From: a virus
Lineage: Duplodnaviria > Caudoviricetes
Length of the DNA stretch: 64,000 nt
Direction: 5' to 3' (one strand)
IMG/VR virus record: IMGVR_UViG_3300027672_001796
Of the stretch, positions 7,634-11,185 are shown in pieces. The notes beneath the pieces are model-generated. The model was given only the letters and a program-made list of their open reading frames with translations, was not told the DNA's origin and ran no database searches. The translations under genes and the position numbers were made by a program. The stretch's first letter is position 1. The number at the start of each line of letters is the position of its first letter.

Positions 7634-7662
7634 TTGACACAAGACGTGATAACTACTATAAT
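7634..7662 (+). promoter_or_regulatory. Sigma70-like promoter for tRNA-Ser
   Basis: TTGACA-17-TATAAT, perfect consensus. Confidence 0.85.
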
Positions 7663-7672
7663 GTCTACATAC

Positions 7673-7762
7673 GGAGAGTTGGCTGAGTGGTCGAAAGCGC
7701 CTCCCTGCTAAGGAGGTATATGGGTAACTGTATCGAGGGTTCGAATCCCTCACTCTCCGCCA
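7673..7762 (+). tRNA. tRNA-Ser(GCT)
   Basis: Acceptor GGAGAGT/ACTCTCC; anticodon arm CCTCC-CT-GCT-AA-GGAGG; long variable arm; TTCGAAT loop; G discriminator; encoded CCA. Confidence 0.97.
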
Positions 7763-7767
7763 CTTAC

Positions 7768-8241
7768 TTAACTAGCTGATGTAATTAAACTAGCCATAAA
7801 GCCTATTATACCACCACATGCTGTTATGCCCACAGCAATAGCACCCATATCAAACCAGAACCTTCTAGACTCTGCCTTGAGCGTTGCCGCCCGCATTCTA
7901 GCTTGTTGGATTGCTCTGCGTTCTTTCATCATATCTTCATAGAACCCAGCTTGTCCTGAATATATTAAAAACTCTCTGAGTTCCTTCTCAAGATTTGCCA
8001 TTTTATGTTTGGCGGCTGTTATTTCTAGTGCCTGTGCTTCTACACTACTGCCACTGAATAACTTTTTAATCATTGGTTGATTTTGACCGTATTGGCTAGC
8101 ACCTATTATCTGATCCTTAGCATCAAAGAACTTACCAAAATATCCAGCAACATCTTCTATTTCTCGACCCGCCGCGACTGCTCGTTGAATGCCCTTGAAG
8201 GCGGCATTTGCCAGGCTAATTGCCCCTGCTATCTCTATCAT
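7768..8241 (-). CDS. Hypothetical protein with C-terminal TM helix
   Basis: SD aggag; helical body; hydrophobic C-terminus; late-like TAAGTA at 8276-8281. Confidence 0.75.
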   Translation of the reverse strand: MIEIAGAISLANAAFKGIQRAVAAGREIEDVAGYFGKFFDAKDQIIGASQYGQNQPMIKKLFSGSSVEAQALEITAAKHKMANLEKELREFLIYSGQAGFYEDMMKERRAIQQARMRAATLKAESRRFWFDMGAIAVGITACGGIIGFMASLITSAS

Positions 8242-8296
8242 GTGCGTCTCCTACGACCCGTATGACCTACAATAGTACTTATCTAAACCACAAATA

Positions 8297-8338
8297 CCGG
8301 TAAAAAACGGTTGACTTACCAGCAAAATACTGTATAAT
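8297..8338 (+). promoter_or_regulatory. Sigma70-like early promoter with GGTAAAA upstream element
   Basis: ccGGTAAAAaacggTTGACT-16-TATAAT. Confidence 0.75.
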
Positions 8339-8372
8339 AGTATACATATTAACGCAAAGAGGCAGTAGTTAC

Positions 8373-8651
8373 ATGGCATATTACACTCATACAGCAGATC
8401 CAATAGGCGTTTTCACTGAAAAAGAATACGGAAATTACTTTGAATTTAGTAATAATCCAGATAATTTTGCATTTTGCGAAGACCACCCACATGTTGTATG
8501 GGTAGGATCTCATGGAGTTGGGGGAGATAGCGGACGCCGTTATGCTACTGTTAAGAAGACAGTTGCTTATGTGGTAGTTGGTGAAGACGAGTTTGGACTT
8601 CCTGTTGTTGAGAAGTGGAATATCAAACAGCGTAAAGATTATTTCGTATAA
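8373..8651 (+). CDS. Small hypothetical early protein
   Basis: 92-aa ORF with SD gagg directly after the promoter. Confidence 0.7.
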   Translation: MAYYTHTADPIGVFTEKEYGNYFEFSNNPDNFAFCEDHPHVVWVGSHGVGGDSGRRYATVKKTVAYVVVGEDEFGLPVVEKWNIKQRKDYFV

Positions 8652-8821
8652 CAGACAAGCACATTAACTCTGTGCTAGTAGTAAGTTGTTCCTTCTATGA
8701 TAGAACTTAGGGTAGTTCCTAAGAATTGGAACACGATGACAGTAGTCCGTACACTTGGGTACGATAGTTTGAAGCGGTGGAGAACTGAAGATCTCGGTTC
8801 CGGGAAGCTGTTAAAACACCA
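8649..8821 (+). ncRNA. Candidate structured non-coding RNA ending in ACCA
   Basis: No ORF; at least six short stems including a multi-branch junction; 3' end ...aaaacACCA lies 12 nt before tRNA-Trp. Confidence 0.6.
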
Positions 8822-8833
8822 ATACTTATTTAT

Positions 8834-8908
8834 GAGTTAGTGGTCTAATGGTAAGATGCAGGTCTCCAAAACCTTGCGATTGGGGTTCGAATCCTTACTA
8901 GCTCGCCA
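8834..8908 (+). tRNA. tRNA-Trp(CCA)
   Basis: Acceptor GAGTTAG/CTAGCTC; anticodon loop CT-CCA-AA; TTCGAAT loop; encoded CCA. Confidence 0.93.
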
Positions 8909-8929
8909 AATTGAAATAGGATAGATGTA

Positions 8930-9325
8930 ATGACAGATACAGATTATCGTATGATACGCAATGCAATGAGAACCCCAGACGGCACATTATTGCAAAGCCG
9001 ACACCGGCATGATTATGTTACTCACAAGGATAAGAACGGCAACGAGTACATGGTTGATGGTGGATTAAGTTATATTCGTTCCAGTGCTAACGGTGACGAA
9101 GAATTGTTGACCGTTACACTTGCAGATTCTCATGAACAGGTTAGAGAGTCATGTGATTGGGGAACATATGGCATTGCCGGCGATCAACCGCTGTCATATA
9201 TTACTTTGTGTGACATGACCACTGACCACATTGAAGCAGTCATTAAGAATGTGCCGTCAATCAATCCAGCAATTAAAATTGCTATGCAGAACGAGTTGGA
9301 GTATCGCAATGACAATGCCAAATGA
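8930..9325 (+). CDS. Hypothetical phage protein
   Basis: 131-aa ORF containing SRHRHDYVTH...YMVDGG. Confidence 0.75.
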   Translation: MTDTDYRMIRNAMRTPDGTLLQSRHRHDYVTHKDKNGNEYMVDGGLSYIRSSANGDEELLTVTLADSHEQVRESCDWGTYGIAGDQPLSYITLCDMTTDHIEAVIKNVPSINPAIKIAMQNELEYRNDNAK

Positions 9326-9834: not shown

Positions 9835-10181
9835 TTAGTTATAGCACAAACTGGATGGGTCCAGTAATGAATCGTTGGTACGAAGAACGAGGCATACCTT
9901 TCGAGTTGCGAAAGACTTCTGGTAAGATACTACCAGTAATGGAGTACAAACAATTTCTTGAATCCTATTCATGTGGACGTATTGATATCTATGGACTTGA
10001 TGAAGACGCATATTGGTGTGGTAAATCCGAATATAGTGTTGCTCCTATGCGTACAGAAGATTGGAATGCATTAAGTGAATGGTTATATGGCTTTGAGTCT
10101 AAAGAGCTTGTATCAAAAGACTCTCTCATAGAACAATTTGAAAATGATTATGGTAAAAAGATAAGGTGGTGGAAGAACTAA
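9831..10181 (+). CDS. Hypothetical protein
   Basis: ATGA overlap with the upstream gene. Confidence 0.7.
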   Translation: MISYSTNWMGPVMNRWYEERGIPFELRKTSGKILPVMEYKQFLESYSCGRIDIYGLDEDAYWCGKSEYSVAPMRTEDWNALSEWLYGFESKELVSKDSLIEQFENDYGKKIRWWKN

Positions 10182-10660
10182 TGAAAATTAAAATAGGAAA
10201 GTATCCGACACATCGTTGGTATCATAACTTTCTATACGAAAAGTTTGGTATTGGTAATGAGCCTAAAGTATCTGTGCATATAGATGACTTCGACACTTGG
10301 AGTATGGATCATACCCTTTCATATATCATTGAGCCAATGCTCAAGCAACTCAAATTAACCAAGCATGGTGCTCCTTATGTGTACCCTGAAGATGTCCCGG
10401 CAGAGTTGCGTCCTACTAAAAAAGAACTAACAGCATACACTAAAAATGGTGAGACTGATAACAAGTTCTTTGAGCGTTGGGATTGGGTAATGGATGAAAT
10501 GATCTTCGCCTTTGAGAGCAAACATAACGATTGGGAAAATCAATTCCAAATTGATGAGATTGTCGCCCTTTGGGATTGGGAAGGACGTACTGCATACCAA
10601 GAACGTATTAGTAACGGCTTTAAACTATTCGGCAAGTACTACGAAAATTTATGGGATTAA
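10181..10660 (+). CDS. Conserved phage hypothetical protein
   Basis: TAATG coupling; DTWSMDHTLSYII...KHGAP...WDWVMDEMIFAFE. Confidence 0.75.
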   Translation: MKIKIGKYPTHRWYHNFLYEKFGIGNEPKVSVHIDDFDTWSMDHTLSYIIEPMLKQLKLTKHGAPYVYPEDVPAELRPTKKELTAYTKNGETDNKFFERWDWVMDEMIFAFESKHNDWENQFQIDEIVALWDWEGRTAYQERISNGFKLFGKYYENLWD

Positions 10661-10661
10661 T

Positions 10662-10742
10662 ATGATAGAAATTTTCGTGTATGCGTTCGGGTGTGTTGTG
10701 TTCATAGTCTGGATCATAATCAAAGGAGAAGAGGACGAGTAG
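10662..10742 (+). CDS. 26-aa single-pass membrane peptide
   Basis: MIEIFVYAFGCVVFIVWIIIKGEEDE, 1 nt after the upstream stop. Confidence 0.5.
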   Translation: MIEIFVYAFGCVVFIVWIIIKGEEDE

Positions 10743-11077: not shown

Positions 11078-11102
11078 AAGAGCTCATTGTATGGGCTCTT
11101 TT
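11078..11102 (+). terminator. Intrinsic terminator / processing hairpin before tRNA-Ala
   Basis: aagagctca-ttgta-tgggctctt followed by tt. Confidence 0.65.
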
Positions 11103-11109
11103 AATTTCT

Positions 11110-11185
11110 GGGGATGTAGCTCAGTTGGGAGAGCGGTTCCCTTGCACGGAACAGGTCGTAGGTTCGATCCCTATCATCTCCACCA
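11110..11185 (+). tRNA. tRNA-Ala(TGC)
   Basis: Acceptor GGGGATG/CATCTCC with G3:U70; anticodon arm GTTCC-CT-TGC-AC-GGAAC; encoded CCA. Confidence 0.97.

What the first reader, a model, noticed from the sequence alone, without database searches (positions are those of the whole stretch)
8649..8821. Unassigned ~170-nt multi-stem RNA ending in ACCA, co-transcribed with tRNA-Trp
Seen: the interval has no ORF and contains several stems. agcaca/tgtgct (8659-8676) is one. tgttcc/ggaaca (8687-8733) encloses two hairpins, ttcta/tagaa and cttagg/cctaag. gac/gtc, cgtac/gtacg (8748-8763) and gaactga/tcggttc (8782-8800) follow, with a possible closing helix taacag/ctgtta and a 3' tail aaacACCA. It lacks tRNA, tmRNA and RNase P signatures. 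Known: T4 tRNA clusters encode stable CCA-ended RNAs (species 1 and 2, or RNAs C and D) of unknown function. Inference: this is a processed stable phage RNA, such as a tRNA mimic, nuclease decoy or ribozyme.
Basis: partly seen in the sequence, partly recalled or inferred. Interest (0 to 1): 0.75.

Follow-up and report, generated by a model that had tools for sequence, protein, structure and literature searches.

The report
Folded RNA gene among phage tRNAs
The 180-base gap before tRNA-Trp in this giant uncultured marine phage holds a conserved, intricately folded non-coding RNA that travels with phage tRNA genes, matches no catalogued RNA family, and has no known function.

Summary
Window 8655-~8827 (+) is a structured RNA module, not spacer and not a gene for a protein.

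- **Copies:** it recurs in five gene contexts in uncultured marine phage contigs, always on the tRNA strand and always directly before a tRNA (Trp, Met, Pro or Arg).
- **Conservation:** its first 128 nt are 85-90% identical between phages whose neighbouring genes are 64-77% identical.
- **Structure:** the diverged 3' part keeps its helices through compensatory changes. On five sequences, 10 of 53 pairs changed on both sides, against 4.1±1.5 in shuffles.
- **Fold:** hairpin P1, a three-way junction (P2/P2a/P2b), hairpins P3 and P4, and a long arm (P5-P6) with a consensus kink-turn. A likely pseudoknot joins the P4 loop to the 3' tail.
the proposed closing helix is wrong. The 'ACCA' is not a conserved CCA end; it is ACCCCG in the commonest variant and covaries with the P4 loop. 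A 47-aa ORF does cross the interval, but it is cut to 23 aa in one lineage.
- **Known families:** no match in Rfam 15. A covariance model finds nothing in the T4 rnaC/rnaD region.
- **Still open:** processing, stability and function are untested.

The scan flagged this same stretch once more in an overlapping window. It has also reported other undescribed RNAs in tRNA clusters of other phages.

The parts
8311..8338 (+). sigma-70-like promoter (TTGACT-16-TATAAT) ahead of the 92-aa gene; the only good promoter upstream of the RNA and tRNA-Trp
   Evidence: 11 of 12 matches. The only other + strand match before tRNA-Trp is a weak 9/12 site at 8736-8765.
8373..8651 (+). 92-aa early gene 'pA' (phrog_23785, unknown function), upstream neighbour in this phage only
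   Evidence: Other copies of the RNA follow a different gene or a tRNA-Leu.
8655..8827 (+). the conserved structured RNA module as a whole; homology between copies starts at about 8652-8655 and fades after about 8827
   Evidence: CM R1 scores 135-224 bits in window, L003, L094, L112 and L113.
8655..8679 (+). P1 hairpin (8658-8663/8671-8676, 7-nt loop) with a 2-3 bp extension (8655-8656/8678-8679)
   Evidence: invariant in type A copies. Replaced by a different hairpin at the same place in type B.
8687..8733 (+). three-way junction: P2 (8687-8692/8728-8733) enclosing P2a (8693-8705) and P2b (8706-8723)
   Evidence: pair 8689-8731 changes U-A to C-G in L112, L113 and in an RNA-library contig. 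Changes in P2b are U-A to U-G only.
8738..8747 (+). P3 hairpin GAC-AGUA-GUC; with the preceding CACGAU it is invariant in every copy, type B included
8748..8763 (+). P4 hairpin; loop bases 8755-8758 (UUGG) are the proposed pseudoknot partner of 8819-8822
   Evidence: one-sided changes in the stem. Loop and tail read UUGG/CCAA (window), UUGG/CCAG (L112), GGGG/CCCC (L113, L182).
8767..8817 (+). P5-P6 arm: P5a 8767-8770/8814-8817, P5b 8773-8778/8807-8812, P6 8782-8800
   Evidence: P5a reads GUUU/AAAC, GUUC/GGGC and GAAC/GUUC in three lineages. P6 is wholly different in letters and length but always a hairpin.
8779..8806 (+). kink-turn consensus: GGA (8779-8781) opposite a 3-nt bulge (8801-8803) plus GAA (8804-8806), with the C-stem pair G8782-C8800
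   Evidence: conserved in all lineages while the bulge varies (CGG, UGA, CGU, AGU). Consensus and the 3b.3n = A.G rule are from PMC4382518.
8818..8827 (+). 3' tail ACCAAUACUU; CCAA probably pairs with the P4 loop
   Evidence: helix 7
8834..8908 (+). tRNA-Trp (CCA anticodon, encoded CCA end), 12 nt after the ACCA
8697..8840 (+). 47-aa ORF across the RNA, judged not to be a gene
   Evidence: No Shine-Dalgarno sequence. The stop lies inside the next tRNA. Cut to 23 aa in L113. Only one called homologue among 5.8 billion proteins.

Best explanation
Window 8655-~8827 (+) is the gene-like module for a compactly folded non-coding RNA of about 170-200 nt. It belongs to the tRNA operons of a group of giant uncultured marine phages. 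Shown: it is conserved at the nucleotide level well above the neighbouring genes. Its helices are kept by compensatory changes that work only on the + strand. It carries a consensus kink-turn of the kind that folds in Mg2+ without protein. It moves between genomes together with tRNA genes, not with any protein gene. Inferred: it is transcribed from the promoter at 8311-8338 in one transcript with the 92-aa gene and tRNA-Trp. It would then be freed as a discrete small RNA by the enzymes that mature the flanking tRNAs. RNase P cutting at the 5' end of the next tRNA would set its 3' side. Where a tRNA-Leu precedes it by one base, maturation of that tRNA's 3' end would set its 5' side. Its 3' tail would be tucked into a pseudoknot with the P4 loop, which would shield it from exonucleases. 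It then most likely acts in trans as a folded RNA that binds a protein, a small ligand or another RNA. What it binds is unknown.
For: - No Rfam family at gathering or E<=10 for three lineages.
- Five contexts, always before a tRNA on the same strand: pA-RNA-tRNA-Trp (window, L003); another gene-RNA-tRNA-Met-Trp (L094); gene-RNA-tRNA-Pro-Asn-Met-Trp (L112) and tRNA-Leu-RNA-tRNA-Trp (L113); 116-aa gene-RNA-tRNA-Arg (L182-L191).
- Identity of window to L112: 5' domain 89.8%, next genes 69-77%. Window to L113: 5' domain 85.2%, tRNA-Trp 78.7%.
- L094's 15-kb contig shares only this RNA (97%), tRNA-Trp and an 89-nt stretch with the 64-kb window.
- Covariation. Many pairs are G-U, so the fold exists only on the + strand.
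- The kink-turn letters are conserved while its bulge and C-stem vary (PMC4382518).
- Contigs of RNA libraries from three studies carry it. One joins the RNA to tRNA-Met and tRNA-Trp, and two join it to the upstream gene.
Against: - No data show a discrete RNA. The RNA-library evidence is assembled contigs, which cannot show ends, strand or level and could include DNA. Pieces resembling the neighbouring genes have similar depth.
- Only about four independent lineages exist, and the covariation counts come from alignments fitted to my model.
- Complete related genomes of 139 and 165 kb lack the RNA, and close relatives carry tRNA-Met in its place, so it is dispensable.
- The pseudoknot rests on one lineage's double change, and in that lineage an extended P4 competes with it.
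- For the type B 5' domain the free-energy fold prefers another hairpin.
Confidence: 0.7

Rival explanations
1. A cis-acting part of the tRNA operon rather than a trans-acting RNA. It would be a folded leader or spacer that directs processing, stability or the level of the tRNA that follows it, and is then discarded.
For: It is followed by a tRNA within 9-17 nt in every context and has no promoter or terminator of its own.
Against: The tRNA that follows differs (Trp, Met, Pro, Arg). The same tRNA-Met-tRNA-Trp pair works without it in L007 and L060. About 170 nt with a three-way junction, a kink-turn and invariant unpaired stretches is far more than known tRNA leaders need.
Confidence: 0.17
2. 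A tRNA mimic with a free CCA end that is matured, repaired or even aminoacylated like a tRNA.
For: In the window clade and L112, helix P5a is followed directly by ACCA. This phage's tRNAs encode their CCA.
Against: The tail is ACCCCA in L113 and ACCCCG in L182-L191. The CC(AA) covaries with the P4 loop. There is no T-loop, and the 5' end does not pair with the 3' end. ARAGORN (introns allowed) and the Rfam tRNA, tmRNA and YrlA models find nothing.
Confidence: 0.05
3. A small protein gene: the 47-aa ORF 8697-8840.
For: The ORF is open in four of five lineages and was called as a hypothetical protein in some assemblies.
Against: No ribosome-binding site precedes it. It ends inside whatever tRNA follows, so its tail differs each time, and it stops after 23 codons in L113. 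The 42 nt before the ATG are as conserved as the ORF. The covarying pair 8689-8731 spans the start codon. Substitutions within the window clade are 4 non-synonymous to 2 synonymous.
Confidence: 0.02
4. Neutral spacer, a relic of a decayed tRNA or gene, or a DNA-level site such as a promoter or recombination site.
For: Window and L003 differ as much here (94.5%) as in the adjacent gene (96.4%). The single-sequence fold z-score is weak. A relative has tRNA-Met at this spot.
Against: It is 85-90% identical across lineages whose genes are 64-77% identical. Compensatory changes and G-U pairs are specific to one strand. There is no similarity to tRNA-Met.
Confidence: 0.03

Closest known systems
Phage T4 stable RNAs species 1 and 2 (rnaC, rnaD) of the T4 tRNA cluster
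   Same: Small non-tRNA RNAs encoded among phage tRNA genes on the same strand and a few bases from the neighbouring tRNA. Their function is still unknown (PMC3014915; PMC12685909).
   Different: No detectable homology: model R1 with filters off scores about 0-3 bits across the T4 tRNA region. T4 rnaC ends in a tRNA-type T-arm, which this RNA lacks. I saw no kink-turn or three-way junction in the T4 RNAs' predicted folds.
Functional spacers of bacterial tRNA operons
   Same: An RNA segment made as part of a tRNA operon transcript and released by tRNA processing.
   Different: Those spacers are short and act through a single-stranded pairing site. This RNA is about 170-200 nt, highly folded and conserved as a structure. 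No pairing target was sought here.
Kink-turns of ribosomal Kt-7 and the SAM-I riboswitch
   Same: Three-nucleotide bulge, then G.A and A.G pairs, a C-G pair closing the C-stem, and 3b.3n = A.G as in Kt-7. That class folds in metal ions alone (PMC4382518).
   Different: This is a shared motif, not a shared family. The rest of the RNA matches no riboswitch or rRNA model, and a tRNA follows it, not an ORF.
GOLLD and ROOL RNAs (large ornate RNAs often beside tRNAs in phages and prophages)
   Same: Structured RNAs of unknown function linked to phage tRNA genes.
   Different: They are three to five times larger, and no Rfam match to them was found.

Membership tests
T4 rnaC/rnaD (species 1 and 2 RNAs) | encoded inside a phage tRNA gene cluster, on the tRNA strand | tested here: met
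T4 rnaC/rnaD (species 1 and 2 RNAs) | sequence and structure homology to T4 rnaC or rnaD | tested here: not met
   cmsearch with R1, filters off, over L114 2700-4700: best score 2.8 bits and not on rnaC/rnaD. The reverse test, a T4-based model against the marine copies, was not run.
T4 rnaC/rnaD (species 1 and 2 RNAs) | accumulates as a discrete stable RNA cut from the tRNA precursor | not testable with these tools
   only assembled contigs of RNA libraries were available
tRNA, tmRNA, YrlA-type tRNA mimics | cloverleaf or T-arm plus an acceptor stem formed by the 5' and 3' ends; match to the Rfam models | tested here: not met
   ARAGORN, with introns allowed as well; cmscan at E<=10
tRNA, tmRNA, YrlA-type tRNA mimics | conserved single-stranded NCCA 3' end | tested here: not met
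   ACCA in the window clade and L112, ACCCCA in L113, ACCCCG in L182-L191; covaries with the P4 loop
Kink-turn motif | 3-nt bulge followed by tandem G.A/A.G, flanked by a Watson-Crick C-stem | tested here: met
   GGA/GAA conserved, bulge variable, C-stem covaries (PMC4382518). Sequence level only.
Kink-turn motif | kinked three-dimensional geometry | not testable with these tools
   needs FRET, probing or a structure
Riboswitch or other 5' leader regulator | lies in the 5' UTR of a regulated protein gene, with an expression platform | tested here: not met
   followed by a tRNA in all five contexts; no terminator or RBS-sequestering helix
Any Rfam 15 family | covariance-model match at or near the gathering score | tested here: not met

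The most novel reading that the evidence does not exclude
The RNA is a new functional class. It would be a phage RNA matured by the tRNA-processing machinery, whose compact kink-turn and pseudoknot fold specifically captures a host factor during early infection. That factor could be a tRNA-directed defence nuclease, a tRNA-modifying or processing enzyme, or a small metabolite. If so, the long-unexplained non-tRNA RNAs of phage tRNA clusters would be counter-defence or takeover tools. The swapping of whole 5' domains (type A versus type B) on one 3' domain would then reflect changing targets.
Probability: 0.12. Interest if true: 0.85.

Novelty: new variant of a known kind. Interest (0 to 1): 0.6.

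Why it matters
Phage T4's two non-tRNA RNAs in its tRNA cluster have had no known function for about fifty years. This is an unrelated, better-conserved and more elaborately folded RNA in the same kind of place, in giant ocean phages that cannot yet be grown. It has a clear domain structure, a recognisable kink-turn and natural domain swaps, so it gives concrete mutants and constructs to test. Together with other notes of this scan, it adds to the evidence that phage tRNA clusters are a general home for undescribed RNA genes.

Tried and rejected
- **Known families:** Rfam at gathering and at E<=10 gave only tRNAs and noise on three lineages. ARAGORN with introns found only tRNA-Trp, and its relaxed mitochondrial mode gave only low-grade calls.
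- **GenBank phages:** BLAST matched only tRNA-Trp with the window copy, and nothing with the L112 and L113 copies.
- **First homologue searches:** blastn, nhmmer and tblastn over the first 92 loci found only near-identical copies.
- **Pattern scans:** a scan with the tRNA-tail 29-mer read from an RNA contig found nothing. The gapped-pattern hits L115-L118 and all 45 bacterial-genome hits failed the covariance model, so they are chance.
- **Protein search:** the 47-aa ORF gave one near-identical hit.
- **RNA runs:** the RNA runs seemed to hold this RNA and little else. I do not count that as evidence of abundance, because laid contigs show pieces resembling the neighbouring genes at similar depth, and contigs cannot show ends.
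- **Structure ideas dropped:** A J1/2-to-tail helix (AGUA/UACU), proposed by MFE and RNAalifold, is broken in L113.
- **T4:** I thought I saw likeness to T4 rnaD by eye, but the model search did not confirm it.
- **Literature:** I could not check whether the motif is among the 8,495 IMG/VR candidates of PMC10690425, because no supplement is held. Those candidates are 29-151 nt long.

Full report
**What is there**

The window is part of a large uncultured marine myovirus. It encodes a tail sheath and virion proteins, and CheckV figures for related fragments imply a genome of several hundred kb.

A near-consensus sigma-70 promoter at 8311-8338 precedes a 92-aa gene at 8373-8651 (phrog_23785; I call it pA). 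A 182-nt gap follows, then tRNA-Trp at 8834-8908 and a DUF6552 gene (pB). The gap has no good promoter and no + strand terminator-like site. tRNA-Trp is therefore most simply read from the pA promoter, through the gap.

**The sequence on its own**

The fold of the single sequence is only weakly better than shuffles (z -1.6 to -1.7). Rfam 15 gives nothing but tRNAs, even at E<=10. ARAGORN with introns allowed finds only tRNA-Trp.

**Finding relatives**

- Protein-anchored searches with pA and pB first gave only one other version, 95.6% identical (L003 group). They also showed that relatives with 78-88% pA identity (L007, L060) carry tRNA-Met at exactly this place.
- Exact-word scans added L094. 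There the element follows an unrelated gene and is followed by tRNA-Met and tRNA-Trp. L094's 15-kb contig shares only the element (97%), tRNA-Trp and an 89-nt stretch with the whole 64-kb window.
- A degenerate scan of a conserved core found two diverged copies. L112 has gene-element-tRNA-Pro-Asn-Met-Trp. In L113 the element sits one base after the CCA of a tRNA-Leu and just before a tRNA-Trp.
- Look-ups of flanking proteins in other assemblies gave many more L113-type copies. They also gave a further version, which I call type B (L168, L182-L191). It lies between a 116-aa gene and tRNA-Arg(ACG).
- The element is therefore tied to tRNA genes, not to any protein gene. It is not universal: two complete related genomes of 139 and 165 kb lack it.

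**Selection**

Between the window and L003 the element differs about as much as the adjacent gene, which says little. Between lineages the picture is clear.

| Comparison | Element, first 128 nt (8655-8782) | Element, last ~50 nt | Other |
|---|---|---|---|
| Window vs L112 | 89.8% | 58.3% | syntenic genes 69-77% |
| Window vs L113 | 85.2% | 53.8% | L113's tRNA-Trp 78.7% |

**Structure**

I wrote a structure from the window sequence, built covariance model R1 on the three near-identical copies and aligned the others to it.

- On five sequences, 98.5% of cells form standard pairs.
- Ten of 53 pairs changed on both sides, against 4.1±1.5 in shuffles (0 of 500 shuffles reach it).
- Structures slid by 1-3 columns give 0-4 such pairs.
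- RNAalifold, which predicts a structure of its own on that alignment, returns the same helices.

The clearest cases are these:

- **P2:** pair 8689-8731 goes from U-A to C-G. The same two changes appear in a contig from an RNA library.
- **P5a:** it reads GUUU/AAAC, GUUC/GGGC and GAAC/GUUC in three lineages.
- **P6:** its letters and length differ completely (19 to 42 nt), yet it is always a hairpin.

Many pairs are G-U, so the fold exists only on the + strand. P1 and P3 never vary among type A copies and so give no evidence either way. These counts rest on about four independent lineages and on alignments fitted to my model.

**Kink-turn**

Between P5b and P6 every lineage has GGA on the 5' strand. 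On the 3' strand each has a 3-nt bulge of variable sequence (CGG, UGA, CGU, AGU) followed by GAA, and the C-stem closes with G-C. This is the standard kink-turn pattern. Position 3b.3n is A.G, as in Kt-7, the class that folds in metal ions without protein (PMC4382518). The kinked geometry itself is inferred.

**The 'ACCA'**

After P5a the tail reads ACCAA in the window clade, ACCAG in L112, ACCCCA in L113 and ACCCCG in L182-L191. A terminal CCA is therefore not conserved.

The last four bases of the P4 loop change with the tail: UUGG with CCAA or CCAG, and GGGG with CCCC. In L113 the nested minimum-energy fold pairs its 3' C-run tail with a G-rich stretch around the P4 loop, giving up P4. I read this as a pseudoknot, or a long-range helix, that buries the 3' tail. 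It rests on one lineage's double change, so it is a hypothesis.

Its 5' half is the stop-codon region of pA and is not conserved. Its 3' half belongs to P5b.

**Not a protein**

- The ORF has no Shine-Dalgarno sequence.
- It always ends inside whichever tRNA follows, and it stops after 23 codons in L113.
- The 42 nt before its ATG are equally conserved.
- A covarying pair spans the start codon.
- Only one near-identical homologue was ever called as a gene.

**Type B**

In L168 and L182-L191, everything from CACGAU-P3 onward is almost identical to L113. The letters of P1, P2, P2a and P2b are nearly all different. The model aligns type B so that P2 is six standard pairs and P1 is a new hairpin at the same place. 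With this row added, 23 of 50 pairs show changes on both sides.

A free-energy fold of that part prefers a different 7-bp hairpin and is no better than shuffles. Type B is either a far-diverged 5' domain or a replacement. Either way the RNA is modular, with a junction just before P3.

**Expression**

Four marine metatranscriptome runs from three studies hold 50-71% of the element's sampled words. Laid contigs cover it. One contig joins its 3' end through tRNA-Met to tRNA-Trp, and two join it to the L094-type upstream gene. One is a further ~90% variant preceded by a tRNA 3' end.

These are assembled contigs. They show presence in RNA libraries and are consistent with co-transcription. They do not show ends, strand or abundance. 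Pieces resembling pA and pB have similar depth.

**Comparison with what is known**

T4 encodes rnaD and rnaC directly after tRNA-Arg, and their roles remain unknown (PMC3014915, PMC12685909). The present RNA is the same kind of thing by position. It is not a detectable homologue and lacks the T-arm of rnaC. It is not a tRNA mimic, a riboswitch, or a GOLLD/ROOL relative by the tests in the membership table.

Earlier notes of this scan report other undescribed RNAs in phage tRNA clusters. One is a roughly 205-nt kink-turn RNA of giant freshwater phages (e1-5322444). I could not test whether that one is related.

**Verdict**

This is a real, conserved, structured RNA module of the tRNA operons of giant marine phages. 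It is a new family within a known but unexplained kind. The most likely mechanism is release by tRNA-processing enzymes as a stable, compactly folded RNA that acts in trans. That step and the function are inferred, not shown.

Noticed in passing
window 7634-7762: tRNA-Ser(GCT) has its own perfect sigma-70 promoter (TTGACA-17-TATAAT) ending about 10 nt before the tRNA, so it is a single-tRNA transcription unit. In L003 the same tRNA sits about 80 nt before pA, against about 600 nt here, because a 157-aa minus-strand gene (7768-8241) lies between them in the window.
   Followed up: partly
window 8241-9325 vs L003: The block pA-RNA-tRNA-Trp is 94-97% identical to L003, while the sequence just upstream (67%) and the next gene pB (79.5%) are much more diverged. 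This looks like mosaic exchange of a small early-gene and tRNA cassette.
   Followed up: partly
L007 2830-2917 and L060 1331-1421: In these relatives ARAGORN reads the tRNA-Ser anticodon as ACT instead of GCT. An A at the wobble position is unusual for a bacterial-type tRNA-Ser.
   Followed up: no
window 10574-10662 vs L110 84-172: An 89-nt stretch at the end of the 164-aa gene (10166-10660) is 87% identical in the otherwise unrelated L094/L110 contig, about 560 nt upstream of its copy of the RNA.
   Followed up: no
L168 789-880; L182 2859-2950: 'Type B' copies keep the 3' unit of the L113-type RNA but have an almost wholly different 5' domain, with short shared unpaired motifs (UAGUA, AUGAA, GGUCG). 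This suggests more distant family members that my exact-word scans could not reach.
   Followed up: partly
window 11078-11185: A terminator-like hairpin (10 bp, then a T-rich run) ends 9 nt before tRNA-Ala(TGC), so tRNA-Ala may need its own start or read-through.
   Followed up: no
window 8930-9325: The gene after tRNA-Trp belongs to Pfam DUF6552. In several related phages it sits directly after a tRNA (Trp or Arg).
   Followed up: no
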